Virus genome (UHGV): UHGV-0327679
DNA length: 35,439 nucleotides
Reading direction: 5' to 3' (one strand)
DNA from: a virus
In this document: positions 697 to 19,070 of the stretch, one piece after another
Numbering within the stretch: the stretch's first letter is position 1
Layout of the letters: each line of letters opens with the position of its first letter
Made by a program: the position numbers and the translations under genes
Notes under the pieces: model-generated
The model's database searches: none
Told to the model about the DNA's origin: nothing
Seen by the model: the letters and a program-made list of their open reading frames with translations, nothing else

Positions 697-709
697 TCCG
701 GAGAAAATA

Positions 710-1301: not shown

Positions 1302-1320
1302 TCGTTGCGTTGGTTATCTG

Positions 1321-2223
1321 TCAGTAGTTATGTACTGAAGGAGGTAATTCTTTATTCTTAAGTCTCATCCATGCGGAAAGATTCGTTGGTCCGTCTGGCT
1401 CATTGATATCAACATCTCGTGTGTGATTGATTAAAACGTCTCTCGCCATTCCGATAACATACGAGAACTCATGACCGTAGTCGTAGCATCTGCCTGAATA
1501 GTTCGATTGAATTTGTTTTAGCGCCGGATACAGTTCGCGGAATAATGCCTGTGAGCGGTTGGCATAATCCCATAACCATACAAGGCTGTTTGCTTCTTTT
1601 GCAGAAAGCTCGTTGGTTTTCTTCTCTTGTTTTCCGATGAACTCGCCTTCAAGCACTACCCTGTGGATGTACTCTACTGCTTGCGGTATCTGAGATGAAT
1701 CAAGCTCTTCAATACTTTCCACGTTGAAACGCTGATGAATCATTGCATAAGCTTCTGGGTACATTAGATGCTTTTTGCTGACTAGCATATTTACAGCATC
1801 ACGAAGCGGAGTCCTGTCATCAACAGATGTTTTCTTACGTGCATTTTCTGCCTTTCCCTTCGTCCAGTAGTCATGCAGCACAGTAAAGCATTCTTCCTGG
1901 TACTGAATCAGTTTATCGCGAATGTCAGCACGAACTTTCTCAGGGTTGATGCTGAACAGCCATCCATTTAACTTCTTCAAAGGAAGGCAGAGTAGCTTAC
2001 GAAGCTTACCATCAGCGGCAACCATGTTCATATGAACACAGTTGAATTTGCTAATCTGCTTCATGAGTTTTGTTTGCTGCGTTGACCAGCTCATTCCAAG
2101 GTTTTCAACGATTGGCTTCATCGCAACATATGCAACTCCGGCAGTCATGGCGGTGATAATCTGCTGACCATTGAAAGGTACGTAAGAGGTGTTCACTGCT
2201 TCTAAAATTGCTATACTATTCAT
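1321..2223 (-). CDS. ant: Antirepressor Ant (immI)
   Basis: Starts [22 protein letters not shown] as in P22 Ant; GGAG upstream of ATG at 2223; directly downstream of arc. Confidence 0.85.
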
Positions 2224-2291
2224 GTTGGTTTTTCTCCACGAATTTACTGACAACAGAAGCCCTGACTGTTCCCGCAGTTGGGGCTTCAACT

Positions 2292-2453
2292 TTACGCGCC
2301 AATACGCCCTTCCTTCTTAAAGCTGTCCATTACTCTCTGATAAATCTCAGAGTTAACAGACCGACCATTCTCTTCCGCCACCTTGCGTACCAAATCCAAT
2401 ACTTCTTTAGGCCACCGCAAATTGAACTGCGGCATTTTGCTCATTCCTTTCAT
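2292..2453 (-). CDS. arc: Arc repressor (ribbon-helix-helix)
   Basis: 53 aa [53 protein letters not shown], near-identical to P22 Arc. Confidence 0.9.
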
Positions 2454-2469
2454 GTTCACCTCACAATAT

Positions 2470-2486
2470 AGGTCCACGGTGGACCT
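2470..2486. promoter_or_regulatory. Mnt operator (Omnt), 17-bp symmetric site
   Basis: AGGTCCACGGTGGACCT, the known P22 mnt operator, in the arc-mnt divergent region. Confidence 0.8.
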
Positions 2487-2495
2487 ATTGAGAAT

Positions 2496-2516
2496 ATAGT
2501 AGAGTGCTTCTATCAT
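2496..2516. promoter_or_regulatory. Arc operator (Oarc)
   Basis: ATAGTAGAGTGCTTCTATCAT, the known P22 arc operator, just upstream of the arc start. Confidence 0.8.
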
Positions 2517-2543
2517 GTCAATACACTAACTTGGAGTGATGGC

Positions 2544-2798
2544 ATGGCTAGAGATGATCCGCACTTTAACTTCCGCATGCCTTTGGAAGTAAGAGAAAAA
2601 TTAAAATACAGAGCAGAGTCAAATGGTAGATCAATGAACTCAGAATTGTTGCAAATCGTCCAAGATGCTCTATCGAGACCATCTCCTGTAAAAGGTTATC
2701 GCAATGAAGCTGAACGATTAGCCGAGATGCAGGCTGAACAGTTCAAGTCTGTGGTATTTGAGACACTTAAAAACATGTATGGCAAGGATGCAAAATGA
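2544..2798 (+). CDS. mnt: Mnt repressor (maintenance of lysogeny, ribbon-helix-helix)
   Basis: MARDDPHFNFRMPLEVREKLKYRAESNGRSMNSELLQIVQDAL matches P22 Mnt. Confidence 0.9.
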   Translation: MARDDPHFNFRMPLEVREKLKYRAESNGRSMNSELLQIVQDALSRPSPVKGYRNEAERLAEMQAEQFKSVVFETLKNMYGKDAK

Positions 2799-3376
2799 TC
2801 GATTACAACCCAGCAAAAAAAGAAATCATCGCAGCTAAAAAGTGCCTAGAGCAGATGAAATCATCTACAAACCATGATGATTTTGAAATGCACTGGCGAG
2901 AATGTCTTGGGCATATAGAAAAGTCTTTCAGTAAGTTGCTCTGTGCAACAAAGCCGGTTAGTGGAAAATTTAGCAGCCACTTCAACCAAAAGTTCATGCT
3001 TAGAAAAACAGACAAAACACTTGCTTACCTTCACCAAGCAAGAAATGCTGATCATCATTCCACTATGGAAATCTCAAAACTTGAACCTCCTTATACTACT
3101 CTTGGGGCATTTCCTGGAGCAAGAAGCCATTATATTAAAGAGTTAATCATTGATTCAACAGGGAAAATAGCAAAATACGAAGGCGACCCTATGGTAGTTG
3201 AGTTTCATCCAGCAACAACTATGCCTATAACCGTAAGAAACCAAGGCAAAGATTATCCACCTCCAACAGAACATCTTGGCGAAAAGCTTGTTGATATACA
3301 TCCATCTGTTCTTGCCCATCTCGGTATACAATTTTATGAAAAATGGATAGATGAGTCGTGTGCAACGTTTAGATAG
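2795..3376 (+). CDS. Hypothetical 193-aa soluble protein, translationally coupled to mnt (cargo gene)
   Basis: ATGA overlap with the mnt stop; AAGGA Shine-Dalgarno; AT-rich; no motif I can recognise. Confidence 0.6.
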   Translation: MIDYNPAKKEIIAAKKCLEQMKSSTNHDDFEMHWRECLGHIEKSFSKLLCATKPVSGKFSSHFNQKFMLRKTDKTLAYLHQARNADHHSTMEISKLEPPYTTLGAFPGARSHYIKELIIDSTGKIAKYEGDPMVVEFHPATTMPITVRNQGKDYPPPTEHLGEKLVDIHPSVLAHLGIQFYEKWIDESCATFR

Positions 3377-3605
3377 TTATTTTTGATAATTTCAAGTATT
3401 TCCTCTTGACTTTGATTTACCCAAACGTGATCACACTCATGAAACCAGATTATGCTTCCTGTTTCGCCTTGTGCAATATAGGTGATCATGTTTTCATTAA
3501 CAATTATTACTGAGTTATCATGTGCGTAATTTAGTTTTATCAATTCGCATATCCTATCGTGACAAAGTAACTAGAAAAACTAAAGAGGTTGGTGTGTCTG
3601 ATTCT

Positions 3606-4088
3606 ATGAGTTACGCTGTGCTAGTTGCCGCAACTCTATTTATGGGGATAGGGTTGCAGATTGCGTGGTTCTTTTTTTCTAGTTTTATTAAACGCAAAAG
3701 AATTGAATCAAGGATATCTGAGATTTCTATTGCCATAGGGAAAAATGCTGAAAATCCAGAGAATGAGACCTGCGCACTTAATTACCTTAAAGAAAAGTTT
3801 TCCCCTGAAAAATTTGAAAATAGAATTACTGATGCTCTTGGATTGGTAATATCAGTAATTCATATGCCACTAAGTTTGCTGATAACAGTGTGGTACTTCG
3901 CCATGATCGCCGGAAGAATATTTGGTTTCATGAATATAGAGCCTGTAGTTCTTTGGGTTCCAATGATACTGCAACTGTTGTTAAGCGTTGCTATCTTTAT
4001 TTTTTCTGTTTTTATAAAAATTGTCTTTGGAAGATACCCCGGAGAAGCTAAGGGATTTAATAAAGAATTCATAAAAACTATAAAATAA
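3606..4088 (+). CDS. Putative superinfection-exclusion inner-membrane protein (SieA-like, about 160 aa, 3 predicted TM helices)
   Basis: Hydrophobic segments [59 protein letters not shown]; position between mnt and gene 16 equals the P22 sieA locus; start codon uncertain (ATG 3606). Confidence 0.45.
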
Positions 4089-4110
4089 ATGCCGTCCTTG
4101 GCTTACAGTG

Positions 4111-5952
4111 CTACTGCCGTGTCGCTTCGTTAGCTAAGAGCGGGCGCACGGCAGTAGCAGCCTGATTTAGCGCTCTTTCATAAGCTGGCGTTCCAGCTTT
4201 AGTGTTTGCCAGACGTAAGAGCGCATTCCTTGCTGCTTTGGACTCATACAAACGCATCATTGCACCAAAACCAGCCTCAATCCCCATTGATACTCCAAGA
4301 GTCGCAGTTGCGCCAATCGTCCTTATCCTGTTGGCTTGTGATTGCCCCGTCTGAGTTACTACATTTGCGGTGTCTGACCTTGCTGTTTGCTGTAGAACTT
4401 CATGAAGAGCATCGAGCTCTTTCATGTGCTTTCCAGAAAAAATAGTGTTGTAAATTTCACCGCCTGACTGAGATTTAAGCTTATTAACTTCAGTGATGAA
4501 CTTGGCTGGAGAGTCACCGGCCTTTTCCGCTATTTTGCTGACGTAAGCTGCACGCATAGCATCTTTCCCTTTATCATCCAATGCGCTCCAGATTCGTTTC
4601 ACGTCAGATGGTTTTCTGCTTAATACAACGGTATTTATAAGTTCAGGACTGGCTTCACTGCTTGCCTTGTTGAGCTTGTTGGCAATGTTTTTATTAAGCA
4701 CCTTATTATAAACGTTTGCATAATCGGAATTTGCTTTAAGGTATTTTGCTGCGTCTGATGCACCGAGGTTTTTAGCAACTGCGTTACGAAGGTCTTTTGA
4801 CATTGCATTCTCTACCATATTGGTAGCTGCTTTTGCCTGGTTGGGGAAGACCATAGCATCTCCCTGAACATTAGATCTAAATGCTGTTCTGTGCTGACGC
4901 AAGAGATCAAACGTAACATCCAAATCAGTTGCAGGGTTTGCTAATTCTTCGCGTAGGTTACGCAAGGATGTAAGCAGGCTTTGATTGGCAGACGTCCCAA
5001 GCCGTTCCTGTCTTGCGATCGCTGTATTCAGAGCATTCATAGTGTTTGTGGTATCAACTGCGGCATTCCCCATTTTATTGGTGACGTCATTGATAACAGC
5101 GCCAGCGGCATCCTTCCGTCCCCTTAACGTGGTGGTCAGAGATTTCACCACATCATCCGGGTTGTACTCACCAAAACGGTCAAAATAATTACTTACCAAC
5201 TTACTACGCGTTGCATATTGCTCCGCTCGCTTTGAGCCTGTCCCGAGCAAAGCCCCCTCGGCATCCTGAGTAAGGCCGCGAGTGAAAGCATTTTTCGGCG
5301 GGATAACATCAGATGTCATTGGTGTCACGCCAATCGATTCTGATGTGGCAATTTTCTTCGCCACTTCTGGCGCAATATCACCTTTTATAGCCGTTATTCC
5401 ACGCCCTATTCCCTTTGCTGCTGCGGAAAGAACCCCCTGAGCGGCAAGGTTAACTCCGGCATTTTTAGCTGCATTTTGTGCGAAATCGCCTTTCTGATTT
5501 GCGGCCTCTGCCAGTGATCCAATAGCCATGCTTCCTGCCGTTCCAACTCCTGGAACTAAATACCCACCAATTGTTTCACCGGCTTGTGCGTATGGGTCTG
5601 TCGGTCTGTCTACTGGACGATAAACATCATCCAAAACCTTGGGTCCACCAAGCCCATGACTGATTGCATTAATCAGACTTGCGCCGCCCTGCAATACGTC
5701 AAATGGTATGTTTACCAGACCACGACCAGCCTGCTCTGCAATTTGCCCTGCACTTTGACCACCTGTGAGCCAATCGCCAGCTTGTTGCATCAATGATGGT
5801 TCTTCACGTGCTGGTTCATTATTGGCCTGATTAACTGTTTGTTGCTGAACAGCCTGACCAGCAAAATACTCATCAATGGCGGTGCCAATATCTTCCGTGC
5901 TCGTACCATCAGGGAAGGTAAATGTCTTACCGTTTGCAGTTACTTTCATCAT
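4111..5952 (-). CDS. Ejection (DNA-transfer) protein, P22 gp16-like
   Basis: 613 aa, Gly/Ala-rich; position and size match P22 gene 16. Confidence 0.75.
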
Positions 5953-7424
5953 TCCACCGTAAATTGAATGCCTGATTTTGAGGTATATGATCCGGATTGA
6001 CTCTGCTGCTGTTGGGTATTTGTCGGTTGTTGGCTATTGCTCTGTTGTTGACTATTTGCAGCACTTGAAACCACCAAAGCATCATAAACGCGACCAGACT
6101 GACCACGTAATGAGTTATATTGGCCCTGCATTTTTCGCATTTTTGTTTCAGTAGCAGCCTTGGAATCACCGGGCTGAGGCAGGTACATTTTGGAATACTC
6201 CTGCATCTCTGGCAGAGTAATTGCTGCACCTGTTTCTGGGCGCAAAATTGCATACAAGGCGTCTCTCGCATTTACCATATATTGCTGCTCCGCTGGTGAT
6301 AGGCTTAAATTTGCAATAGTCCCATCACCAAGAGAGCGATTTATTAATGCAACTCGCTTAGGGTCAATGCTTTTACTAAGCTGATTCATTGAGTCCATTG
6401 AATCTTTTAATCGCAAAGCAAATCCTGCCGCCTTCTTGGAACCCTCATTAGCCTTATCTATGATGCTTTGCGCTTGTGGCAAGCTAATTGGTTTAATGCC
6501 ATCACCAGATATAGGTTGGTTTAGTTTTCCGGCTTCCTCGCTGCCATCGGTGTAATACTTAGTTACCGAGCCATCAGGATTGGTTTCAACCTTAAGTAAT
6601 TTCTTAGCATTGGGATTAATTCCCGCCGCTGCCGCAAATGCCGCTGCACCATCTGGATCCGCCTTTAACATTTGCGCGTACTGATTGTAATTCTGCATTG
6701 CGGCTGTTGGTGCATATGCTGACGTTAACGCATTTGCTCGGCTAATATCCTGCCCTCTCGCCTGAAGTGCTTCGCTGGCCTGATTGCTGCGGATTGTCTC
6801 TGCCAGTCTGCCTCGGTCAATCTCACGACCAGCTATCTTGTCCTGAACAGCAAACGCCTTTTCTGGCCCAAGCGCACCGAGAGACATAGTAGTCAGCATG
6901 TGTGATAACTGCTCTGGATTCTGGATACCTGTCTGAATCATCCAGTCAGCATTCGCACCAACGCGATTTAACCTGTCCTTGTTGTCAGTAATGAATTTAC
7001 TGTAGGCTTCCGGTCCCTGAGAAAGAGCGACGTTAGCCCTCATGGCTAAATCGCCCATATCGTTACGTTGCTGATCATTAAGACCGGAAAACGCCTGTTG
7101 TGCCTGTGCAACAAACGCTGGATTTTCCTGGGCAAACTTAAATAGTCCCGATGGATCACCAGAAGCCCATGCATCAGCGTGAACCTTATTGAACGCACTA
7201 ATCGCTTTCTGTTGCTGTTCCTGATTGTAAATATCAGCAACTCCAGCCAGACCACGTAACGCGGTCAGACCAACGTTATTTGCACCTGAGCGAGCCAACT
7301 CATTGTTTTCGCGGATCAGACCAAGCGTTGCGTTAATGTCGCTTGCTTTTGGCGCATTCTCATTTTGCGCACCAATGCCAGCCAGAAAACCACCAGAATT
7401 AATACCCTGTTGCCACGTAGCCAT
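5949..7424 (-). CDS. Ejection protein, P22 gp20-like
   Basis: 491 aa; synteny 7-20-16; start overlaps the gene 7 region. Confidence 0.75.
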
Positions 7425-7434
7425 TGATTACCCC

Positions 7435-8127
7435 TTAAAACAGTGAACCAAGAAGACCAAGACCGCCGCCAACAGCGGCACCAATACCAGTACCAATACC
7501 GGGAACAATGCTGCCAAGCTGTGCTCCAGCAATTGCTCCAGAGGCAGCCCCGCCTATTGCAGATTGAAGGCCGGAAGGTCTATTAGCGTTTGCCGCCGCC
7601 AGTGCCGCGCTTTGCTGTGAAATCTGGCTCATGTTGTTGGCATATGTTTGCCCGGCGTTTGCCTGCCCCTGAAGAGCGCCAAGACCAATATTTGCCAGAT
7701 TCTGGTAGTTGTTCATCTGGCCAGACAGCCACTGCTGACCAAGCGTTGGTGCGATTGTTGCTAACTGATTACTGGTTGCGGTGGAACCTAATCCACCTGT
7801 TGCTTCCGCTGCCGCCAGACTCTGATAGCGCGCCTGACCAGCAAGGTCTTTGTACTGCTGAGAGTTGTAATACTGGTTAAGCGCCTGACCTTGCCCCTCC
7901 AGAGACGATAAGTTCTCGAGGCTGCCGACATACTTCTCAGCCAGAGGAGTAAACGGTTTCAGGTTGTTCATGATGGTGTTGAACTGCTGATTTTGCAGGT
8001 CTGCGGAATACTTCTGGGCTTCTGCTGCATACTTTGCGCTTTTATCGGCTCCACCTTTCCCGCCTTTTTCAGGGCAATAAGGTTCCTCGCCGCGCAGTTT
8101 TCTGCCCAGCTTAAATGCATATAACAT
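7435..8127 (-). CDS. Ejection protein, P22 gp7-like
   Basis: 230 aa with a Gly-rich C-terminus; synteny. Confidence 0.7.
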   Translation of the reverse strand: MLYAFKLGRKLRGEEPYCPEKGGKGGADKSAKYAAEAQKYSADLQNQQFNTIMNNLKPFTPLAEKYVGSLENLSSLEGQGQALNQYYNSQQYKDLAGQARYQSLAAAEATGGLGSTATSNQLATIAPTLGQQWLSGQMNNYQNLANIGLGALQGQANAGQTYANNMSQISQQSAALAAANANRPSGLQSAIGGAASGAIAGAQLGSIVPGIGTGIGAAVGGGLGLLGSLF

Positions 8128-8129
8128 GG

Positions 8130-8588
8130 CTATCTCCCGTGATTCAGGAAGTCGATTAGTTCTTCGCGTGTGGCGCTGTAAAACGTCACGTCATCCACGC
8201 CTTTAAAGTATTTCTTGATGGTTCCGACACGCTTAAGGCCAATCATTGCGCAGTAAATCTGCCCGTGGCGGAATTTGCGTGCGGCGAACGATGTGACGCA
8301 CTGAACGGTGGTGTTAGTCAGAATGTATCGCCAGAACGCCAGCCCGATTTCCTTGCTGAATCCACGAATCTCTGGCAGGTACATGGCGTGGCAATCAAAG
8401 GTCAGCGGCTGAATCTCCTGATAGTAAACAATTCCGCCGAACTGCCCGTGCACGTTCACCTCAAAGTAACGGCATTCAGGCTTGTAGTCGTATCCATCGC
8501 CGTTGTTGCTCCCGGCGATAATGTCAGGGTGATTTCCTACTGCTTCGATCAGGTCGATGTTTCGCGTTGGTTTGAAATGAATCATCAC
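8130..8588 (-). CDS. Virion protein in the P22 gene 14 position
   Basis: 152 aa; assigned by synteny only (between tail needle and gp7). Confidence 0.5.
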
Positions 8589-9538
8589 TGCTCCGCGATT
8601 ATCTTGATGGTTGTGGCAGTAAACGCCGCACCATTCGACTGAATGGTTAACGTGCTGCCATTTGTGGCAAGAAAGCCGTCTTTATCCACACTGAAGAACG
8701 TAGCTAACAGGATGTTATCGGTCGTTGTCGCCGAGTTGCGACTGCTTACCAGTGTGTCAGGAACAGAGCCGGAAAAGGTTAGCTGCATTGACCTGTTTGC
8801 GGTTCCGCTGGGCCACGTCCCGACAATCGACAGCTTGAAGAACAGGGTTTTGTTCTCGTTGAAAACAACCATCTTGTTGTTATCAGTATCGAAGAATGGT
8901 GCCAACGTCCCGGATGACGGCGTGAGCGTTTTCAGCAGGCTAACAAGGTTGGTCGGCGCTGTTGGAATGGTTACCGATACTCCTGAGTAAACAACCTCTG
9001 ATTTCTTGCGCGTGGTGGCATACTCAAGCGCAGATATTCTTGTTGAGTGATCACCAACTGTGCTTTGTAGCGTCGAAATACTTCCCTCTGCCGCTGTGAG
9101 CCTGGTATCAAGTGCGTTGATATCGGTTGTATTCTGAGTTATTCGCGCATCATGGTTTGCTAACTCAGATTCATTGGCAGCAATTCGCGTCTCGTGATCA
9201 GCCAGCTCTGTTTCGGCAGCCGTAATCCTTGTTTCATGATCTGCAAGAGTGCTTTCCGCTGCTGCGATTCTATGTTCATGATTGACGAGAGTTGCTTCAG
9301 CAGCAGCAATTCTGGATTCATGGTCTGCAAGGGTGACATCCTGCTCATCATTCTTCACCTGTGCATCATAAGCCCCCTTCCCTGCTTCGTTGGCCTTGTT
9401 AGCCACGTTACCAACATCAGCACCCTGTGCGATAACGTACAGCAGATATGACTGCGAGAAGATATTGCGTGGAAGGACTGATGTGTCGAGTCGTGTAGCC
9501 TGAATGATTACCGGCTCATTGAGATTCGAATCAGCCAT
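8585..9538 (-). CDS. Tail needle (P22 gp26-like) with C-terminal knob extension
   Basis: N-terminus [39 protein letters not shown] matches gp26; heptad repeats [11 protein letters not shown]; 317 aa versus 233 in P22, suggesting an Sf6/HK620-type knob. Confidence 0.8.
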
Positions 9539-10957
9539 TACTCGATCCTTATCTGGCAGCCTGACAGAGTGACAGGTGACTTAGTGATAACACGCAATTT
9601 GAAGCCGACATTTTTCCTGATGCGCCCAACTCGCTTCCACAAAACGCGTTTGTCGTAAACGAACGGTTCATTCTGCTCAATCATCTGCTCACGCCCGTAA
9701 TTGATACCGTCAGTGGTTGCAGAGAGAAAAAGGCGGTCAGCATACTGCGCAACGCCAGTTGACGATTCAACCTCAAGGTCGAACACTCTGGCGTTATCCG
9801 CTTTGAACAGTGGAGTAAACAGCAGGTGTTCCTGTTGCTTGTCGTACTGGCTGCTGATATCGAACTGCAGTTTCCCGGTAACAGATTCCAGCTTATCGCC
9901 GCACGTTATCTGATTGCCTTCGTAAATGAAGTCGATAGCGCGGTACACATCGTCATACAAGCCAGTTTTCAACACACACCATTGCGTACCATTGGCGCTT
10001 GAAGATGCGTCGTACACGAGAACATGGCGCGCAAGATGGATAATCAGCAACTCATGCGCATCAAATCGCAGAGACTCCATCACGCCATCAGCCAGTTCAT
10101 CAGCAGTGTAGGAGCGTAGTATTTTCTCAATGCTCGCGCTGGCGATTGGTGATACCTGACCAGAGCCGATGATATACACAGACGGCGCACCTGTTGCCGG
10201 ATTGCTGATGAACGCATACGAATCAGCGAACTGCGTTTTGCAGTAGGTTCCAGCGATACCTTTCTGCACCATTAACGATGGCTGGGCGACATACAAAGCA
10301 GCACCAACGGTGGTTGCACCCGTCAGGGAGAAATATTCAATCGTCGATGAACCAAAGCAGACGATAAAGTCTCGCCATGTACCTATGCCGATGATGCCGT
10401 CAGGCTGCGATTCTGCACGATATTGTGCGCTGTAGCGGTCAGGGTGCGATTCGTCTTCAAGGTCAGTGATAAACCATGAATCAGTACCGTCTTTTGACCA
10501 CGCATAACGCCCACGTAAGCGCGTAATGTCGCGAACTGAACCTAACTCATACTGCGTAAAACCGCTGTCTGTAGGCCAGTTTGATACGGTTTTAACCGTG
10601 CCATCATAGCGATACTCGACCAGTTGACCATTAACGCCTACAGCCTGTAGATGTTCGACCATGCGCCATTGATACGCGACCACTTCCGGCGACGTCACCG
10701 ACTTCACTTTCGCCTTTGTACAGCTTGCCACCACACACGCGATAAACGGCACTCTGCGCCATGTTGTACTCGACGCCGCGCGATACGCCGTTCACATCAG
10801 AACGTTTGGCAATTCCCGGGAATGAGCGAAGATATCCGCTGCTGTTCAGGATTTCTTTGGGTGTAGCCAGCATATTCACTGGCAGATAGTCGATATAGTC
10901 GGCATTTCGGAAGTCTTTGCCGACGCCTTTCATGAGCGGAAGTTGCTGAATCGGCAT
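9538..10957 (-). pseudogene. Tail accessory protein (P22 gp10-like) interrupted by a frameshift
   Basis: Two overlapping ORFs (10631..10957, 108 aa, and 9538..10752, 404 aa) in different frames together reach the P22 gp10 length (about 470 aa); shift lies near 10650-10665. Confidence 0.65.
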
Positions 10958-10966
10958 TTATTCACC

Positions 10967-11428
10967 TCACGTACTCGGATCATCTTTCTCGATGTAAAAC
11001 CGATTCCACGTATACGCGCTTTTGTTACCACTACCGCGAGGCATGTCATTTCGCCGCTCAAGTGGTGGTATTTTGGTTAAAGCGATGCAGATTGTCTGAT
11101 ATGCGCTGTCAGCAGCGGTAAGGAGAGCATCCGACGGCTGAATGACGTTATCCATGCACACTTGCACAGCGAGTTTCAAAGCGACGCCATCATTTGCCCA
11201 TGCAGGGATACCTGAATCATCGTCAGGTAACGGCATGATGCCGTTTTCTGTATCAGCAAACTGATATCCAAGCTCGATACCTTTCGCCTGCCATGCTGCC
11301 ATCATGTCTTCGAGGTCATTAATGGCATCTTCAATTGCCTGAGGGTCGGCATCTGTCAACGTGGCATTGGAATACAGCCCGGCTTTTCGTAAAGCCTTTA
11401 GAACGAGATCACCCTTCGTTTTCGCCAT
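10967..11428 (-). CDS. Head-completion/tail accessory protein, P22 gp4-like
   Basis: 153 aa; synteny immediately downstream of the coat region. Confidence 0.65.
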   Translation of the reverse strand: MAKTKGDLVLKALRKAGLYSNATLTDADPQAIEDAINDLEDMMAAWQAKGIELGYQFADTENGIMPLPDDDSGIPAWANDGVALKLAVQVCMDNVIQPSDALLTAADSAYQTICIALTKIPPLERRNDMPRGSGNKSAYTWNRFYIEKDDPST

Positions 11429-11597
11429 CTTCTTCCGCCTTAGCCACTTTTTGCTTCGTTGCGGTTTCTTCAGGAGTTTTTACCCAACCTTTTTTCAGGT
11501 GAGATTTAACTTCTTCGTCATCAACAATGATGTAATCGACAGCAAACTGACCACAGGTGATCATGTTGCCCGGCTTATAGAGCATTGTTCGTGCCAT
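11409..11597 (-). CDS. Small hypothetical protein (62 aa) downstream of coat
   Basis: ATG at 11597 with GGGAGA Shine-Dalgarno; MARTMLYKPGNMITCGQFAVDYIIVDDEE. Confidence 0.5.
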   Translation of the reverse strand: MARTMLYKPGNMITCGQFAVDYIIVDDEEVKSHLKKGWVKTPEETATKQKVAKAEEDGENEG

Positions 11598-11638
11598 TGT
11601 CTTCTCCCAATAAAAATGGGGCCGAAGCCCCACCAAAA

Positions 11639-12892
11639 TTACTGCCCGGCAATAACGATGCCCGTATATTCAGGAACAAGTACAGAGCAGCCGTACAGAG
11701 TGGTGAAACGCGCAGTGGTTACGCCTTTGATGTGGTCGAAGGCGTAAGACATAATCAGCGTAGCGCCCTGCTCGGTGGTTGCCGTCATTACCTGTGGACC
11801 CTGACCAGTCGGGAACGCCAGTTTGCCGTACATCAGTTCAACAGAACCATCAGCCCAGAACAGGTTAGCCGGTGCGGCATTTTTGTTGAGAATGGTGATT
11901 GCTGCGCTACTTGCCGCATTAGCATCAACGTTTGCATATGGACGGCTGGCGACATCCGCGTTGTCAGGCGGCAGAATTTTCGGGGAGATAGTTACTGTCG
12001 TTCCGCTAACTGCCAGAACGCGGAATACCTGCGGCTGCCCGGTGGTATCTTTGGTGATCTGGTGTACGGAATTCACCCCTGCGATGGTAAACGCATCGCC
12101 AACCTGCAAACCTTCATCAGATACCGTAATGGTCCCCTGTCGGTTATCCACTGGCATTTCGTTAGCATCTTTCGCTTCAACCTTGTGCGCAGGTGCTGCT
12201 GCCAGCGTAATGGAAGTTGCTGTACCCTTCGGAACACGACCAGAAATATCGGTCTTGTAGCTATCGAAGGACGCAACCGGAGGGATCTGCGCTTTTTCGT
12301 ATGCTGTCAGGGTTGCGCCCTGAGCATAGGCACGGTGACCAAGCTCGCCAGCAAGGTCTTTGTAGTTGAAGGGGTTCCAGAAAGAGCGGCGGTTGATACC
12401 CTGTGGTACACCAATCGCCGTCATGGTGGCATCAATACCTGCCGCACAGTTCCACAAATCACGGCCCTGTGAACCAGTGGTTGAGTCAGCCATTGTGATC
12501 ACGTTAGTAGCACGCTGCGTGACCATGGAAATCAGGTCAGAGTCAATCTGTGCAGCAAGGCGCATACCTGCGGCGCGACCAGCTTCAGTTTTATGTTCCG
12601 GGTCACGCATTTCACGCGCATCCAGAGTGTACAGAATGTTTTTCGGCTCCTTGAACACAGAAGGAACAAGGCGCTGAACCAGTGCTGTTGGCGTTTTGCC
12701 GCTGAGGTCTAGGCCTTCCTCAATGTTCATGTGGTAATGCTGCGGACGATACAGAACATCACCTGCTCGCTGCATTGCTGTATCACCGGGACGGAATTTT
12801 TTAGCGTTACGGGAAACTACGCAGGCGGCCTCAAAGCCTTCAACGTAGTTTTCGAACATGATTTCAAGGTCTTTTGCTAATTGGTTAGCCAT
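11639..12892 (-). CDS. Major capsid (coat) protein
   Basis: 417 aa directly downstream of scaffold and upstream of gene 4; size and position match the P22-like coat. Confidence 0.8.
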   Translation of the reverse strand: MANQLAKDLEIMFENYVEGFEAACVVSRNAKKFRPGDTAMQRAGDVLYRPQHYHMNIEEGLDLSGKTPTALVQRLVPSVFKEPKNILYTLDAREMRDPEHKTEAGRAAGMRLAAQIDSDLISMVTQRATNVITMADSTTGSQGRDLWNCAAGIDATMTAIGVPQGINRRSFWNPFNYKDLAGELGHRAYAQGATLTAYEKAQIPPVASFDSYKTDISGRVPKGTATSITLAAAPAHKVEAKDANEMPVDNRQGTITVSDEGLQVGDAFTIAGVNSVHQITKDTTGQPQVFRVLAVSGTTVTISPKILPPDNADVASRPYANVDANAASSAAITILNKNAAPANLFWADGSVELMYGKLAFPTGQGPQVMTATTEQGATLIMSYAFDHIKGVTTARFTTLYGCSVLVPEYTGIVIAGQ

Positions 12893-12910
12893 GTTTAATG
12901 CTCCGATAGG

Positions 12911-13804
12911 TTATTTTTTTGCCTTTTTAGCGGCGAAATACGGCGTCCAGTCACCAGTTTCCAGCGCCTTGGCTTTCAATTTGCCGAGGTTGTTGATTAC
13001 TGCGCCGTTGCTCCCCTTAACTGTCGGGGTTGTGGCTGCCGTGGTTTTTGCTTTTGGCATGACTCTGGCCTTCGATTCGATACGTTCCAGCAGACGACCA
13101 ATTGCTACGGGGTTGGTAGCTTCTGCCAGTTGCTTGCGCAGTTCAGCGTTGCGACCGAGCGCCAGAACAACGATTTCCGGCTTCTCTGACTCAAACAGGA
13201 TCGCGTTTTGTGTCTCGATGGGGATTTCCTCGAGTACGGCCTGTTCTGCTTCCTGATAGCCAGGAACTTTGAGAGCCTTAACACGTTGCTGATATTTGGA
13301 TAATCGCTCTTGATAGGCAGCCTGAAGCTCCTGCTCCTTCTGCTTGCGAGCCATCTCCTGTTGCTGGTACTTGCCGTTATCCTCTGCCCACTTAGCCATG
13401 CGTTGCTGGTAGATTTCTTCATCGAAACCGATGTCCTCATCATCCAGTTTTGGCATTCGCGGTGGTTGAGTTATTACCGGCTGCTGCTCGACGGGTTTCT
13501 GAGACTGACGCATCAGCTCTTTCAGCTCGCGGTCTTTCTCTTTAATCGTCTTGCGCAGGTGTTTTACCAGTCCATGCTCTGCGCCATCTTCGCTGGTTGG
13601 CGAATCCAGCTTTTCGTCACCAAAGTAGAATTCCTGTTCTGATTCGTCGTCATCAGTTTCAGTAGCTTCCTCTGCATCATTGCCGGAGGACTCACTGCCA
13701 TCTTCTGTTTCGACTTCTTCAGCCAGTTCGACATCATCAGGAATCTGCTCTGACGCGTCGGTTTCGATTTCAACTTCTGGTGTGTTTTCTGCCATCTGGT
13801 CCAT
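12911..13804 (-). CDS. Scaffolding protein
   Basis: 297 aa, highly acidic N-terminus with predicted coiled-coil, Lys-rich C-terminus; between portal and coat. Confidence 0.8.
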   Translation of the reverse strand: MDQMAENTPEVEIETDASEQIPDDVELAEEVETEDGSESSGNDAEEATETDDDESEQEFYFGDEKLDSPTSEDGAEHGLVKHLRKTIKEKDRELKELMRQSQKPVEQQPVITQPPRMPKLDDEDIGFDEEIYQQRMAKWAEDNGKYQQQEMARKQKEQELQAAYQERLSKYQQRVKALKVPGYQEAEQAVLEEIPIETQNAILFESEKPEIVVLALGRNAELRKQLAEATNPVAIGRLLERIESKARVMPKAKTTAATTPTVKGSNGAVINNLGKLKAKALETGDWTPYFAAKKAKK

Positions 13805-13894
13805 TTGTTACCCCTGTTTACTCGATGTTCAGCCCATCGGAAGGCAATAGGGTGCCAGGCCTCATAAAGACAGCCATTGCACGTTATGGGTTAA

Positions 13895-16093
13895 TTACTG
13901 CTGTGGTTGTTGCTGAGTTGATTTTTGCAGGATGCTGCTGATGTCCATGCGCTGCGCATGACCCTGTGCCTGACTTTTCAGGACAAGCTCTGCATCAGCA
14001 CGGGCATTGTCTCCTTGCTGTTGCTGGAACTGTCCGAGCAGTTTCAGAGCCTCGCGGATATCAGATTTCTGCTGGCTATCGGCAGATGCGAGGATTTTCA
14101 CAACATTTGCCGCTGCAACCTGAGCATCAGTCTGTGCCTGGAATGCTTTAACCTGAATGGCTGCCTGTTCGTTCTGCGCTTTCTGCAATTCAGCCTGACC
14201 AGCAAGAAGCTGACCTTGCGCAGCAACCATAGCCGGATCTGGCTGACTGGCCTGTTGTTGTTTCGCCTGCTCAACCATCTGCTGTTCTTCTGGCGTTCTC
14301 GGCTTGATAACTCCAGACAGAAGCAACTGATTGCGGTTGTATTCTTTCAGGTCGTCCATCCCTTCTCCGTCCATATTGTCGAGAATCATCGACGATACAA
14401 GGTCGTGCTTCGGCGTCCCTGGCGGGATAAGTGCCAGCATGGAAAGTAACGACTTAACCGTTGCATCACGGCGAGTAGCGAACGACTGACCGACATCGAC
14501 AGTCACTTCGTAGTTACCCTGCGAAAGGTCGTTAAGCGCGATAACCTGCCCTGTCTGACGGTCAACCACTTCACCAGTCATCAGCGCCACGTCATCGCTG
14601 CCGTCCTCATTAACGATACGCATCGGCGTATCGCTGCCATAGACTTCACGCGCCATAGAAAGCCACACAACGCCAGCGCGACGCATAGATTTAGCCATGT
14701 TGTCCATGTAGATATAGGACTGCGTGTCCATCCGGTTAAAGATGCTATCAACGGTATCGGTGGCGACGTTGCTCGGCATGTTCTCAAGCTGCGACGCACC
14801 TGTAATTTGCTGAATAGCCGTTCCGGTGTACTGCAATAGCCCGGCAAGAGCTGGAGGCATTTGTGTCGGAGGCGTATAACTGCTGACCTGAGCCTGCGCA
14901 GTAATATCTCCGTTTTTGTTTTTCAAACTGACCATCGGCAGGAACGCCGGGCGCTTTTTGTTGCGCTCCGCCCAATGAGTGGCAAGAGGACCAGGAATCA
15001 TGTCAACATCAACTACAGGAATGCCATCACCGCCAGCCTGAGTAGCGTTATCTGCAATCATGGAAACCATCAGGTTCTCAAGACGCTGTGCATCCATCGC
15101 TTTTGCTGCGTGGCCTTCGATTCGCTCCTGATTATCAACAAATGAACGACGCCCATATACCGGGATGAGAGGAATATGTTCGCCCGGAATACGCTTCGGT
15201 TCTTCCAGCCATTCAGCGCCAGACAGAAGACCGCAATAAACTCGGCGTTTCTTCACCGTTCGCTCGCCAATCAGTTCGAATGCACCATCGGTCAGCTCGT
15301 CGACAATATCTTTGATTTGCTCTTCATCATAGATTGCCGTTTCTCCGCTGACAGGGTTACGCCATGCTGTGAGCTTCACCTTCTCTATGCGAACTTCGTA
15401 GTAGCGACCAACATAGATAGCATCAGGAGTTGACCAGTCATATTGAGTGCCAGTGTCATCACGAGAAAGGCTTGCCGCGATGGAATCAGGGTATTCAGCC
15501 TCGAACGCTTTAGGCGTCATGGAGAACATTTCCATAGCCCACATAGCATCAGAGCGGTCATATTGCTTGCTGTCCTGATCGAAGAAGACGCATGTCGCTG
15601 GGTCGTAAACAGGAAGAAGGCTGATGCGTCGCTGCTCGTTACTCGGATCCATTTCATCTTCGTAATCGGCACACATGCGGAAACAACCGAATCCGCCCGT
15701 TACAGCATCATCAAATGCGTTATCACACGCTTCGCCACCGGATGTTTCCTGATAGTCAGCGCGGAATTTGCCGTTCATCTTTTCGGCTAACGCTTCCGAT
15801 GCCTTGTCATCCTTCGGCCTGAATTTAACGCTGATGCGATTCTGTCGATACTCGCCAATGATGCGATCACATTCACGGGCAATCTTATTCAGCTCAAAGC
15901 GCGGGTAATGCTCAAACCTGCCTTCATCAAATGAGTAACCAGCGTTTGTGCTGCCTTCCCACTGTGCGCCGGACACCCGGACGAAACGTTGAGCTTCAAT
16001 AATCTGCTCACGCATATCCTGCGTTGCTGACCAGGCATTATCAAAGTTGCACAGCACCTTGCGATGCCAGTCAGTCATCTTTTTTTCTGCCAT
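13895..16093 (-). CDS. Portal protein
   Basis: 732 aa (P22 portal is about 725) with a Gln-rich C-terminal barrel segment; immediately downstream of the large terminase. Confidence 0.85.
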   Translation of the reverse strand: MAEKKMTDWHRKVLCNFDNAWSATQDMREQIIEAQRFVRVSGAQWEGSTNAGYSFDEGRFEHYPRFELNKIARECDRIIGEYRQNRISVKFRPKDDKASEALAEKMNGKFRADYQETSGGEACDNAFDDAVTGGFGCFRMCADYEDEMDPSNEQRRISLLPVYDPATCVFFDQDSKQYDRSDAMWAMEMFSMTPKAFEAEYPDSIAASLSRDDTGTQYDWSTPDAIYVGRYYEVRIEKVKLTAWRNPVSGETAIYDEEQIKDIVDELTDGAFELIGERTVKKRRVYCGLLSGAEWLEEPKRIPGEHIPLIPVYGRRSFVDNQERIEGHAAKAMDAQRLENLMVSMIADNATQAGGDGIPVVDVDMIPGPLATHWAERNKKRPAFLPMVSLKNKNGDITAQAQVSSYTPPTQMPPALAGLLQYTGTAIQQITGASQLENMPSNVATDTVDSIFNRMDTQSYIYMDNMAKSMRRAGVVWLSMAREVYGSDTPMRIVNEDGSDDVALMTGEVVDRQTGQVIALNDLSQGNYEVTVDVGQSFATRRDATVKSLLSMLALIPPGTPKHDLVSSMILDNMDGEGMDDLKEYNRNQLLLSGVIKPRTPEEQQMVEQAKQQQASQPDPAMVAAQGQLLAGQAELQKAQNEQAAIQVKAFQAQTDAQVAAANVVKILASADSQQKSDIREALKLLGQFQQQQGDNARADAELVLKSQAQGHAQRMDISSILQKSTQQQPQQ

Positions 16094-16094
16094 A

Positions 16095-17510
16095 TCAACC
16101 TACACCACAAGGAATTGAGTAACTGGAATAGTCGGGTTGCGCAGCCGACTCCGGGCAATGCATACACATCATCAACGCATCAGCCAGGTTAGGAGATGGA
16201 ATACCGAGCTTCTGCTTCATTTCGACCTTAGTCATTAGCTCCAGCTTCCCGTTATTATTGAATTTGCGCTGAATCTGCGTCAGTTCTGCAAACAGCTTCT
16301 CCAGCATCTTCTCGCCTATCGCTTCTTTGTCGAAACTCAGCATGTCGTCTGGGTCTGCATACTCACCGTAGACAACCGCCCGATATGTCAGATACAGCCT
16401 GTCAGCCAGCGCGTAATAGAATTGCGCTCGCTTATTGCGGAATACATCGCCAATAGTGCGAACATTGTCGCCCTGTACGACTTCATCAGCCCATGCTCCG
16501 GCCTGATATGGCGCATCTTCATCGAATGGCGATTCGCTGCCCTTGAACATCGTGGCGGTGATTTTCTTGCCGGAGAACGCTTCCGTTGTCTGCCTGCGTA
16601 GCCCGGCACCAACACCATCACCATCCCACAGGTAGTGGTCAGCGCCGTCTTCAATCGCCAGCGAAGTAGCCCAGTCAGCACCCTCGTTGATGTCCATCAG
16701 CAGACCTTCGGCAATGCGCTTAACTACCGAACCGTGGCGCGATGCATAACCTTTGGCATCCGGCCCTGTATCTGATGGGTCATGCGCAGAGACAACAGCG
16801 CCTTTCGCTTTCCATCCGAGTTTCTTGTGCGCATCGGTAGCAGCTTCAAGCCATTCACGTTTGATGATTGCCATATCACTTGCGCTTACTGGCTCACCAA
16901 GCCAGATGTGACGATACAGTGTCGGATTTCTGCGTTTGCACTCTTCCATCTCCAGACGGAGAACTTCAGGAAAGTGCGGGTTGTCGGTGTAGTTCACCGT
17001 CAGCAGACAAATATCATCAGGAGGGTTTACGACGAATCGCTGATAGGTATCGTCGAGGATGTTTTTCGGGTTGAAGCTCACCCATATTTCGGAAAACGGC
17101 TTGCGGATGGTTGGTATCAGGATGTCCCATGATTCCTTCGTTACCGCTTCCGCTTCTTCCACCCAGCAGATATCAATGCCTTCGAGCGATTTAATCTTCG
17201 TCGGGTTGTTTTTTATGCCGTAGAACATGAATTCAGCATTCGTTCCGAGATGACGAATCATTGAACGCTGAATTTCAAACTCAGCCGAATACCCTTCCCG
17301 CTCTATGGTGTCTTCAAGCAACCGGATTACCGAATCGCTGATACTGTTTTGCAGTTCACGAGCGCAGAGAATACGCACTGGCTGCCGACGCGCCGCTTCA
17401 ACAAGCAGCCTCGCAATTGCCCATGATTTACCGCTACCTCGACCGCCTTTGGCGACTTTGTAGCGATGCGCCTCAATGAACGGTTCAAAGATAGGATTAA
17501 TCGAGGTCAT
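16095..17510 (-). CDS. Terminase large subunit
   Basis: 471 aa; Walker A GGRGSGKS; nuclease domain; overlaps the small-subunit stop. Confidence 0.9.
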   Translation of the reverse strand: MTSINPIFEPFIEAHRYKVAKGGRGSGKSWAIARLLVEAARRQPVRILCARELQNSISDSVIRLLEDTIEREGYSAEFEIQRSMIRHLGTNAEFMFYGIKNNPTKIKSLEGIDICWVEEAEAVTKESWDILIPTIRKPFSEIWVSFNPKNILDDTYQRFVVNPPDDICLLTVNYTDNPHFPEVLRLEMEECKRRNPTLYRHIWLGEPVSASDMAIIKREWLEAATDAHKKLGWKAKGAVVSAHDPSDTGPDAKGYASRHGSVVKRIAEGLLMDINEGADWATSLAIEDGADHYLWDGDGVGAGLRRQTTEAFSGKKITATMFKGSESPFDEDAPYQAGAWADEVVQGDNVRTIGDVFRNKRAQFYYALADRLYLTYRAVVYGEYADPDDMLSFDKEAIGEKMLEKLFAELTQIQRKFNNNGKLELMTKVEMKQKLGIPSPNLADALMMCMHCPESAAQPDYSSYSIPCGVG

Positions 17511-17932
17511 TTTCCGAATAGAGTGCTCATCGGTGATGTTTCAATCTGGATTGCGCCGCCGTCCTTACCGACAAGCTCGTTAGTTACCTTGTCGCCATAC
17601 TTACGGGGATTCATTCGGGCCAGCGCCCATTTGCGGGTATCAACGCGAAGTCTTGCCTTTGCCACCTCAGCAGCATCTGGAATCGCAGTGTCAGCAATTT
17701 CGAATATCTCTTCGAAAATAGAATCAGCTCGTGCCTCAGTTGCCTTCGCGTACTTGTCTCTAAATTCTTCATGCTCTGACAGCCAGCGAAATACAGTAGC
17801 CTTTGCTGGCATGCCGGGGCGCTTGCAAACCTTAACCAGACTTTCCCCGGAGGCAAGCAGCGCACAGATATCATCAGCCACCTCCGGCAGGTAATCCGAA
17901 GGGCGACCGACATTCTTTTTCTCAGTCGCCAT
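17507..17932 (-). CDS. Terminase small subunit (Sf6 gp1-like)
   Basis: 141 aa MATEKKNVGRPSDYLPEVADDICALLASGESLVKVCKRPGMPAKATVFRWL, close to the Sf6 small terminase. Confidence 0.85.
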   Translation of the reverse strand: MATEKKNVGRPSDYLPEVADDICALLASGESLVKVCKRPGMPAKATVFRWLSEHEEFRDKYAKATEARADSIFEEIFEIADTAIPDAAEVAKARLRVDTRKWALARMNPRKYGDKVTNELVGKDGGAIQIETSPMSTLFGK

Positions 17933-18011
17933 ATTGATTATTTCCCTTCTGCTTGCTTATCCCATTCATCGCGGAATTTGGATGGGTTGTCGAAACCTTG
18001 AGTTGCCATGT

Positions 18012-18254
18012 TTATGCTCCGGTAGTGAACAGGTCTAACGCTTCCTTCGATTTACGCACCGCTTCGATAGTGCGGGTCGTGATATCTGAATTAGCGCCAC
18101 CTGACTGGAAGTGAATTTTGAATAGCTCAAGCTTCAGTTCGTCAGTACCAATGAACTGAAATGCTTCTTCTGCGGCTGCGTTCTGGTTCATGACCAGCTT
18201 GTAAATCTCTAACTGGAATTTCTGTTCTTCAGTCATGGGAATAATCTCTGCCAT
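18012..18254 (-). CDS. Hypothetical 80-aa protein upstream of terminase
   Basis: GGAG upstream of ATG 18254; conserved position in P22-like phages. Confidence 0.5.
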   Translation of the reverse strand: MAEIIPMTEEQKFQLEIYKLVMNQNAAAEEAFQFIGTDELKLELFKIHFQSGGANSDITTRTIEAVRKSKEALDLFTTGA

Positions 18255-18581
18255 TGTTGGCTCCGTTTATCCGTTAAAAGGGATATCAGTTAAGTTATCC
18301 CGTGTAGGGTATAAGCCATTGTCGAGACCACTCATTGAATGGTCTCTGCAATAACCGATGTCTTTCCATCAGTCCGCCACCACAAAGAATCTTTTTTGCC
18401 ATAAGGCAGGAGGTTCATCTTTCAGTGGCTGCCAGTGTTATTTCCCCACTTACTGGCTTGGGTTGTTTCGTGGTACTGCCGTTAACTGGTGGCCCAGAAT
18501 AAATTCCGGTTTCATTATCAAGCCCACCCGTAAATGGGCTTTGTAATGAAGAGTTGTTATGAAAATTGCTCTAAACAAGCA

Positions 18582-19070
18582 TTAATAGCCATCAGAAGTA
18601 ATCGCTACAGATTTCAATCCCTCAATGTCATCCTTGGACAGGGCGAACCATTCACCGTGCTTTCTCTTTGCGGCAAATTTGCGATGAAGCATGTTTTCAG
18701 TTTCTCTTCCACCAGGGATCAGGCACTCAAGCTTCAAGCAGTCTGGTCCAGAGTTGCCAAGCGATTTGATGCGTTGTGGAATGTTGGATGAATACCCAAT
18801 TTTGGTTAGCCCAGTTTTCTTCGATGACAAAACGTATACCTGAGGAGGTTCTTTTCTCTGGTCTTCCATTACACGTCTCATTGTTGCCATAAGTCCGCCG
18901 TGCATCAGCATTTCAACAAAGAACGCTGACCGAACACCTGACGACTTAAGCATGCCAGAAAATTCACTTGCCAATTCCATTAACTCTGCGATGTTTTCAG
19001 GAACTTTTTGGCAGTTATCTTCCTTGTATAAGGAAATCATTCTTTGAAGCTTTTCTTCTAATTGGTTCAT
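18582..19070 (-). CDS. T5orf172/GIY-YIG-like domain protein (moron)
   Basis: C-terminal pattern VYVLSSKKTGLTKIGYSSNIPQRIKSL ... ENMLHRKFAAKRKHGEWFAL fits the T5orf172 (MUG113) family; AT-rich; lies after the lysis-cassette terminator; start ambiguous (ATG 19070 or GTG 19106). Confidence 0.6.
   Translation of the reverse strand: MNQLEEKLQRMISLYKEDNCQKVPENIAELMELASEFSGMLKSSGVRSAFFVEMLMHGGLMATMRRVMEDQRKEPPQVYVLSSKKTGLTKIGYSSNIPQRIKSLGNSGPDCLKLECLIPGGRETENMLHRKFAAKRKHGEWFALSKDDIEGLKSVAITSDGY

What the first reader, a model, noticed from the sequence alone, without database searches (positions are those of the whole stretch)
10631..10752. Frameshift splits the gene 10 homologue
Two overlapping ORFs in different frames together reconstruct a roughly 470-aa gp10-like tail accessory protein, implying a 1-nt indel near 10650-10665 that is not in a homopolymer. 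With the tailspike and Rz lesions this suggests either a decaying cryptic prophage or sequencing/assembly error.
Basis: seen in the sequence. Interest (0 to 1): 0.4.

Follow-up and report, generated by a model that had tools for sequence, protein, structure and literature searches.

The report
One-base insertion splits phage tail-hub gene
A single extra base breaks the tail-hub gene (P22 gene 10 / Sf6 gene 8) of a P22-like E. coli phage into two pieces; near-identical copies of the phage elsewhere have the gene intact, so this is an ordinary one-off lesion, more likely a sequence error than biology.

Summary
On the minus strand, ORF 10631-10957 (108 aa) and ORF 9538-10752 (404 aa) match Pfam Phage_stabilise positions 1-101 and 101-469. 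The cause is one extra A on the coding strand (T at window 10648), directly after codon 103 and not in a homopolymer. Deleting it restores a 472-aa protein identical to gp10 of the E. coli FDAARGOS_1256 prophage, which otherwise differs from about 30 kb of the window by only four substitutions.

The inserted allele was found nowhere else. That covers 917 complete E. coli genomes carrying this gene, 129 phage records, IMG/VR, GTDB representatives, JGI metagenomes and the gene-product index. There is no slippery motif and no conservation, so it is not programmed recoding.

The Rz and tailspike "lesions" are two fold-back junctions of 121 and 166 nt, one at the very end of the window. Both are absent from every complete genome. 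The four substitutions are all nonsynonymous, and three are private.

I lean to a consensus or assembly error (about 0.55) over a very recent real null mutation (about 0.4). Long-term prophage decay is not supported. Only raw reads or PCR can decide. Interest is low.

The parts
9538..10957 (-). Whole tail-hub gene (P22 gene 10 / Sf6 gene 8 homologue). It is 1420 nt here and 1419 nt in every relative examined.
   Evidence: every listed full-length match spans 1419 bases in the record; the repaired protein matches PDB 7sg7_T (Sf6 gene 8 protein) and 8tvr_S (P22 gp10) over residues 1-472.
10648..10648 (-). The inserted base (A on the coding strand, T on the + strand), immediately after codon 103 (Ser) and before Gln104.
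10631..10957 (-). N-terminal fragment ORF of 108 aa: 103 native residues plus 5 out-of-frame residues (TGCRR), with stop TAA at 10633-10631. It keeps the native start with a GAGG Shine-Dalgarno sequence upstream.
9538..10752 (-). Downstream frame, open from GTG at 10752 (404 aa) with the first ATG at 10662 (374 aa). Native residues 104-472 are encoded by 10647-9541, with the stop at 9540-9538. No Shine-Dalgarno-like sequence precedes either start.
10631..10752 (-). The 122-nt overlap of the two frames, which are the coordinates of the finding. It contains no homopolymer of 4 or more and no X XXY YYZ motif.
10967..11428 (-). Upstream neighbour: gene 4 homologue (head-to-tail adaptor, 153 aa), intact.
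   Evidence: It is collinear with the annotated gp4-family genes in L004/L005 and with PF11650 genes in relatives.
8585..9538 (-). Downstream neighbour: tail needle with knob (gene 26 homologue, 317 aa), intact. Its start overlaps the gene 10 stop by 1 nt.
   Evidence: the identical protein occurs in 196 blocks of the collection. All 10 places shown have an intact 472-aa gene 10 upstream.

Best explanation
Shown: one extra A after codon 103 of the tail-hub gene shifts the frame. As written, the sequence encodes a 108-aa N-terminal stub and an untranslatable or poorly translatable C-terminal remainder. The hub is a hexamer of six-bladed beta-propellers whose apical domain is built from both the N- and C-terminal extensions. 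It bridges the gp4 adaptor to the tailspikes and the needle, so this allele would be null, and particles would lack tails and lose their DNA. The insertion is not conserved and not programmed. Inferred: the extra base is most likely an error in the sequence record (consensus or assembly error) and not a mutation in the phage. The same 35-kb sequence carries two fold-back junctions of read-length scale, one of them terminal, plus private amino-acid-changing substitutions. All of these are absent from otherwise near-identical genomes.
For: The insertion is the only gap against FDAARGOS_1256 over 18.3 kb plus 11.4 kb of alignment at 99.98% identity. Removing it gives a protein identical to the relatives' gp10. 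The inserted 40-mer is absent from IMG/VR, GTDB representative genomes and JGI metagenomes, whereas the intact 39-mer is in 49 viral contigs. None of the 16 loci fetched by then (L001-L016) carries the insertion motif, including L005 and L011 at 99.96% identity or better over 8 kb; 12 of them carry the exact intact 16-mer and 4 carry neither motif. All 10 places with the identical needle gene have a 472-aa gene 10 upstream. The three possible truncated products are not on record. Fold-back junctions lie at window 19480-19657 and 1-245, with 0-1 nt of microhomology and one untemplated G. The second ends exactly at the window edge. Neither junction is spanned in any complete E. coli genome (0 of 1,913 and 0 of 20 genomes with partial matches). 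The four substitutions are all nonsynonymous. Three are private (0/21, 0/275 and 0/1,123 genomes) and one occurs in 1/181. That pattern fits random errors better than evolution under purifying selection. The hub architecture comes from PMC9728967.
Against: No reads are available, so error is inferred and not shown. A non-homopolymer +1 insertion is not the typical consensus error of Illumina, 454, Ion Torrent or Nanopore data. A private real mutation would also be absent from every database. NCBI annotates frameshifted genes as pseudogenes without products, so the failed product look-ups are weak evidence. Relatives do carry genuine prophage lesions, such as the IS100 insertion and frameshifted KilA-N gene in Combat2C1 and a frameshifted hypothetical gene in FDAARGOS_1256, so real frameshifts in such prophages are common. 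All-nonsynonymous substitutions also fit neutral decay. The fold-back junctions lack the microhomology of 2 bp or more reported for 93.5% of proximal inverted MDA chimeras (PMC1855051), so no specific artefact mechanism is established.
Confidence: 0.55

Rival explanations
1. The lesion is a genuine, very recent inactivating mutation. A +1 insertion arose in the tail-hub gene of a resident P22-like prophage, which in relatives is integrated at argW next to yfdC. It persists because a repressed prophage is not under selection for virion genes. The phage could still excise, replicate and package DNA, but it would make tail-less heads that leak DNA.
For: The base is unambiguous in the sequence (no N or ambiguity codes). 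Its non-homopolymer context is atypical of most platform errors. Real lesions are common in sister prophages. All four substitutions are nonsynonymous and three are private, as expected under relaxed selection. The window is a distinct natural recombinant (GIY-YIG module at 18483-19220 in place of KilA-N), so it is an independent lineage in which private mutations are expected.
Against: Three disruptive indel or structural changes against four substitutions is a very high ratio for spontaneous E. coli mutation (my own knowledge: small indels are roughly a tenth of substitutions and are mostly in homopolymers). An untemplated +1 insertion that does not duplicate a neighbouring base is rare in vivo. 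The accompanying lesions are blunt fold-back junctions, one at the sequence end, which look technical. No other assembly shares the allele.
Confidence: 0.4
2. The prophage is cryptic and decaying over the long term: gene 10, Rz/Rz1 and the tailspike are pseudogenes accumulated over evolutionary time.
For: Three virion or lysis genes appear damaged within one element.
Against: The rest of the element is 99.98-100% identical to intact prophages. There are no deletions, IS elements or further stops. Every lesion is private to this sequence. The tailspike 'lesion' coincides with the end of the window.
Confidence: 0.03
3. The gene is functional through programmed +1 recoding, or through fragment complementation in which the two ORFs are translated separately and reassemble into a hub.
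For: The frames overlap by 122 nt, so a +1 shift anywhere in the overlap would give a near-native protein. A rare AGG codon sits just before the ORF1 stop.
Against: The overlap has no slippery heptamer or homopolymer. No Shine-Dalgarno sequence precedes ATG 10662 or GTG 10752. The arrangement is not conserved: every relative has a single 1419-nt ORF. The break falls inside the beta-propeller fold (PMC9728967).
Confidence: 0.02

Closest known systems
P22 gp10 / Sf6 gp8 tail hub (Pfam PF11134 Phage_stabilise; PDB 8tvr, 8eap, 7sg7)
   Same: The repaired 472-aa protein aligns end to end with the solved Sf6 and P22 hubs (E = 0). It is 98.1% identical to Sf6 gp8 and 98.9% identical to HK620 gp10. 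It has the same position between the gene 4 adaptor and the gene 26 needle.
   Different: In this sequence the ORF is interrupted after codon 103 by a +1 insertion. No other member examined has this.
Prophage at argW/yfdC of E. coli FDAARGOS_1256 (NZ_CP069451.1) and Combat2C1 (NZ_CP019243.1)
   Same: Identity to FDAARGOS_1256 is 99.98% over about 30 kb, and 100% over a further 5.2 kb. The gp10 protein is identical once the extra base is removed.
   Different: In those genomes gene 10, Rz/Rz1 and the tailspike are intact. They carry a KilA-N gene where the window has a GIY-YIG nuclease gene.
Frameshifted pseudogenes annotated in resident prophages (for example KilA-N in Combat2C1)
   Same: A single-gene frameshift in an otherwise intact lambdoid or P22-like prophage.
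   Different: Those examples sit in finished genomes and were annotated as frameshifted by NCBI's pipeline. Here the allele is unsupported by any second assembly and is accompanied by fold-back junctions.
Inverted chimeras with an intervening deletion from whole-genome amplification or library artefacts (Lasken and Stockwell 2007, PMC1855051)
   Same: The two fold-back junctions join nearby segments in inverted orientation with a skipped stretch of 65-87 nt, which is the dominant form of such chimeras.
   Different: The junctions here have 0-1 nt of complementarity and one extra base, whereas 93.5% of proximal inverted MDA chimeras had 2 bp or more. The artefact class does not itself explain a 1-nt insertion.

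Membership tests
P22 gp10 / Sf6 gp8 tail hub (PF11134) | Sequence match to the family profile over its full length | tested here: met
   Profile positions 1-101 fall on ORF1 and 101-469 on ORF2, with scores of 188.9 and 786.4 bits against a cut-off of 25.
P22 gp10 / Sf6 gp8 tail hub (PF11134) | End-to-end homology to a solved tail-hub structure | tested here: met
   The repaired protein matches 7sg7_T and 8tvr_S over residues 1-472 with E = 0.
P22 gp10 / Sf6 gp8 tail hub (PF11134) | Position between the gene 4 adaptor and the gene 26 needle in the late operon | tested here: met
   Window ORFs 10967-11428 and 8585-9538 flank it. The order is collinear with the annotated genes of HK620, Sf6, L004 and L005.
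P22 gp10 / Sf6 gp8 tail hub (PF11134) | A single uninterrupted ORF of about 472 codons (a functional member) | tested here: not met
   A +1 insertion at 10648 leads to a stop at 10633-10631. The sequence is a disrupted copy of a member gene.
Programmed ribosomal frameshift / recoding site | Slippery motif or homopolymer in the overlap | tested here: not met
   The overlap 10631-10752 has no X XXY YYZ motif and no run of 4 or more.
Programmed ribosomal frameshift / recoding site | Two-frame arrangement conserved in relatives | tested here: not met
   All relatives have one 1419-nt ORF. The inserted allele has 0 hits against 49 hits for the intact allele in IMG/VR.
Decaying cryptic prophage | Multiple independent inactivating lesions together with divergence or gene loss relative to functional relatives | tested here: not met
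   There are only 4 substitutions and 1 indel in about 30 kb, no deletions or IS elements, and the other genes are intact. The other two lesions are fold-back junctions, one at the window end.
Decaying cryptic prophage | Integration in a host chromosome (att sites, integrase, host flanks) | not testable with these tools
   The window ends inside phage genes on both sides: the tailspike on the left and the DUF551 gene on the right. Integration is seen only in relatives.
Sequencing / assembly artefact | Reads do not support the base | not testable with these tools
   No reads are available, and the source assembly was not found in any collection.
Sequencing / assembly artefact | Other signs of misassembly in the same sequence | tested here: inconclusive
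   Two fold-back junctions are absent from all complete genomes, and one is terminal. This is suggestive, but their technical origin is not proven.

The most novel reading that the evidence does not exclude
All three lesions are real and recent. On this reading, an untemplated +1 insertion and two blunt fold-back inverted duplications hit gene 10, Rz/Rz1 and the tailspike of an otherwise pristine P22-like prophage. They would be the footprint of an unusual in vivo break-repair or strand-switching process, and a snapshot of the very first steps of prophage inactivation.
Probability: 0.1. Interest if true: 0.35.

Novelty: already known. Interest (0 to 1): 0.08.

Why it matters
It matters little beyond annotation hygiene. 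If the base is an error, the gene should be annotated as an intact tail hub and the element treated as a potentially inducible P22-like phage. If the base is real, the element is a freshly disabled prophage that cannot make infective particles. Either way the gene, its function and this kind of lesion are well understood. The practical lesson concerns the three 'lesions' that made the window look like a decaying prophage. One is a private single-base change and two are fold-back junctions, so they should not be counted as independent evidence of decay.

Tried and rejected
(1) I tried to find the source assembly or any second carrier of the allele. Exact-product look-ups for the 108-, 404- and 374-aa fragments and for the chimeric tailspike ORF found nothing. 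Scans for the insertion-bearing 40-mer in viral contigs, genome contigs and metagenome contigs also found nothing. A positive control with the intact 39-mer gave 49 viral contigs.
(2) I looked for a relative with the same GIY-YIG mosaic to see Rz and gene 10 in that exact background. The exact protein occurs only on four short contigs of 2.1 kb or less, which is uninformative.
(3) I considered programmed frameshifting and rejected it, because there is no motif and no conservation.
(4) I considered a simple biological inversion in Rz and rejected it. The structure is forward, reverse, forward with a 56-nt inverted duplication, an extra G and staggered breakpoints, not a clean inversion.
(5) I considered MDA chimeras as the specific cause of the fold-backs. 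The form matches but the junction microhomology does not, so I left this as a resemblance only.
(6) I used the substitution pattern to try to separate error from decay. Four of four substitutions are nonsynonymous and three are private, which argues against ordinary purifying selection but cannot separate random error from neutral decay.

Full report
**Observation.** The finding lies on the minus strand. ORF 10631-10957 (108 aa, native ATG) and ORF 9538-10752 (404 aa from a GTG; 374 aa from the first ATG at 10662) overlap by 122 nt in different frames. Pfam places the first on positions 1-101 and the second on positions 101-469 of PF11134 Phage_stabilise (E 1.8e-55 and 1.1e-236). The two ORFs are therefore the two halves of one gene 10-type gene.

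**Locating the lesion.** In the phage collection and in 5,426 complete E. coli genomes, every listed full-length match to the 1420-nt query spans 1419 nt. Two complete genomes, FDAARGOS_1256 and Combat2C1, match at 99.9%. A base-by-base comparison shows the only difference in the gene is one extra base at window 10648 (T on the + strand, A on the coding strand): CATCT[A]CAGG against CATCTCAGG. A multiple alignment shows the same gap in FDAARGOS_1256, Combat2C1, HK620, Sf6 and EC.P3. The base follows codon 103 (Ser) and precedes Gln104. Its neighbours are T and C, so it is neither in a homopolymer nor a duplication of a neighbouring base. Deleting it yields a 472-aa protein identical to WP_021549865.1, 98.9% identical to HK620 gp10 and 98.1% identical to Sf6 gp8.

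**What the gene is.** The repaired protein aligns end to end with the solved tail hubs of Sf6 (7sg7, gene 8 protein) and P22 (8tvr, 8eap, gp10). According to the Sf6 tail-machine structure paper (PMC9728967), the hub protomer is a six-bladed beta-propeller with an apical lamin-B1-like domain formed jointly by the N- and C-terminal extensions. Six copies extend the portal channel below the gp4-type adaptor, recruit the six tailspikes and are plugged by the needle. These tail factors stop the packaged genome from leaking. A break after residue 103 separates the N-terminal extension and the first part of the propeller from the rest. The downstream frame has no Shine-Dalgarno sequence before either possible start. 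As written, the allele is a null. The needle gene start overlaps the gene 10 stop by one base, so I infer a polar effect on needle translation as well.

**Is it programmed?** It is not. The overlap has no slippery heptamer and no homopolymer. The arrangement is not conserved: 49 IMG/VR contigs hold the intact 39-mer and none holds the inserted 40-mer. All ten contigs that carry the identical needle gene have a 472-aa gene 10 upstream. None of the 16 loci fetched by that point (L001-L016) has the insertion motif. Twelve of them carry the exact intact 16-mer. The other four carry neither motif, three because their flanking sequence differs and one (L006) because it does not cover gene 10.

**Context.** The window is almost the same phage as the prophage at argW/yfdC in E. 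coli FDAARGOS_1256. Window 167-18482 and 19602-31049 align with four substitutions and this single gap, and 30213-35439 aligns at 100%. The window is nevertheless an independent lineage. At 18483-19220 it carries a GIY-YIG nuclease gene where FDAARGOS_1256 has a KilA-N gene, and that module is found in the same position in 76 other complete genomes. The window contains no integrase, att site or host DNA. It ends inside the tailspike on the left and inside a DUF551 gene on the right, so prophage status is inferred from relatives only.

**The other 'lesions'.** Both are fold-back junctions with the same architecture.
- In Rz, the gene-orientation sequence is collinear up to reference position 11448 (window 19602). 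It then has one unassignable G (19601), followed by the reverse complement of reference 11513-11393 (window 19600-19480), and resumes at reference 11510. As a result 61 nt are present only in inverted form and 56 nt are duplicated in inverted orientation, giving hairpin arms at 19602-19657 and 19480-19535. The right breakpoint also destroys the ATG of the embedded Rz1 gene.
- In the tailspike, the sequence is collinear up to reference 30790 (window 167). It then runs as the reverse complement of reference 30877-30712 (window 166-1), and the window ends there.

The junctions have 0-1 nt of microhomology. Neither junction is spanned in any complete E. coli genome: among 1,913 and 20 genomes with partial matches, none covers 80% or more of the junction query. 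Two events of this unusual type, at read-length scale (121 and 166 nt) and with one at the very end of the sequence, look technical. In form they resemble the 'inverted with intervening deletion' chimeras described for MDA (PMC1855051). However, they lack the junction complementarity of 2 bp or more seen in 93.5% of proximal inverted chimeras there, so I do not assign a specific mechanism.

**Substitutions.** All four differences from FDAARGOS_1256 change an amino acid: coat A259D, I134V in a hypothetical protein, R46M in a hypothetical protein, and holin N70D. In complete E. coli genomes that contain the surrounding 61-mer, the window's allele is found in 1 of 181, 0 of 21, 0 of 275 and 0 of 1,123 genomes respectively. 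Four of four nonsynonymous, mostly private changes are unlikely for a phage lineage under normal purifying selection. They are expected both for random consensus errors and for neutral drift in a silent prophage, so this does not separate the two remaining explanations.

**Weighing.** Several points favour error.
- The assembly shows two structural anomalies of artefactual appearance.
- The ratio of three disruptive indel or structural changes to four substitutions is far above what spontaneous mutation gives (my own knowledge of E. coli mutation spectra).
- An untemplated, non-duplicative +1 insertion is rare in vivo.
- No second assembly carries any of the seven private changes except the coat allele.

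Other points favour a real mutation.
- The context is atypical for most platforms' consensus errors.
- Sister prophages do carry true frameshifts and an IS100 insertion.
- A private mutation would equally be absent from databases.
- The failed product look-ups are weak evidence, because NCBI gives pseudogenes no product.

I put error at about 0.55, a real recent null mutation at about 0.40, old decay at about 0.03 and functional recoding or a functional split gene at about 0.02.

**Verdict.** The gene family, its function and this kind of lesion are all well known. The finding is ordinary and of low interest. Its value is to correct the annotation and to warn that the three lesions are not independent evidence of prophage decay.

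Noticed in passing
window 19480-19657 (minus-strand Rz/Rz1): A fold-back junction inside Rz. The sequence is collinear with intact relatives up to window 19602. It then has one extra G (19601), followed by a 121-nt segment in inverted orientation (19600-19480), and then becomes collinear again. A 56-nt inverted duplication forms a hairpin with a loop of about 65 nt. The Rz frame is broken (86-aa chimeric ORF 19513-19773) and the Rz1 ATG is changed to CTG. The junction is absent from all complete E. coli genomes.
   Followed up: yes
window 1-245 (tailspike N-terminal region): The first 166 bases are the reverse complement of what should follow window 167 (reference 30712-30877, inverted). This creates 79-nt inverted arms (1-79 and 167-245) around an 87-nt spacer, exactly at the window's left end. 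The tailspike is therefore truncated after about 174 codons and continues into inverted sequence (ORF 103-696). The pattern looks like a chimeric read extending a contig end.
   Followed up: yes
window 18483-19220: A mosaic module swap relative to the otherwise near-identical FDAARGOS_1256 prophage. The window has a GIY-YIG nuclease family gene (ORF 18582-19106, minus strand) between the lysis genes and the terminase region, where the relative has a KilA-N gene. The same arrangement occurs at 98-99% identity in 76 complete E. coli genomes. The exact protein allele is on record only on four short contigs.
   Followed up: partly
window 12117, 3194, 27324, 20346: The only four substitutions against FDAARGOS_1256 are all nonsynonymous: coat A259D, I134V, R46M and holin N70D. 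Three are found in no complete E. coli genome, and the coat change is found in one (strain QML220601). Two are C>A/G>T changes and two are A>G/T>C changes.
   Followed up: yes
L008 1910-2635 (GCA_000458765.1 KE700651.1); also phage UPF_BP1 (hit H27): In some relatives an HNH (NUMOD4/HNH_3) homing-endonuclease gene is inserted at the 5' end of gene 10. It leaves a 34-aa duplicated gp10 N-terminal fragment upstream of an intact 472-aa gene. This is a natural, non-disruptive way in which gene 10 appears 'split' in annotation.
   Followed up: no
L004 1344-3342 and 11910-12441 (E. coli Combat2C1 prophage): The sister prophage in Combat2C1 has an IS100 insertion in its replication gene and a frameshifted KilA-N gene. 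These are real decay lesions in a close relative whose gene 10 is intact.
   Followed up: no
window 26630-26664 and 26723-26757: A 35-nt direct repeat (94% identical, 93 nt apart) lies inside the replication-initiator gene (ORF 26238-27185, minus strand). It may represent lambda-type origin iterons.
   Followed up: no
window 35439 (right end) and window 1 (left end): Both ends fall inside phage genes: a DUF551 gene on the right and the tailspike on the left. Relative to the FDAARGOS_1256 prophage, about 5-6 kb is missing (tailspike C-terminus, integrase, att site, TorI-like excisionase and early-left genes). The window looks like a contig broken within the phage and not like a complete element.
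   Followed up: partly
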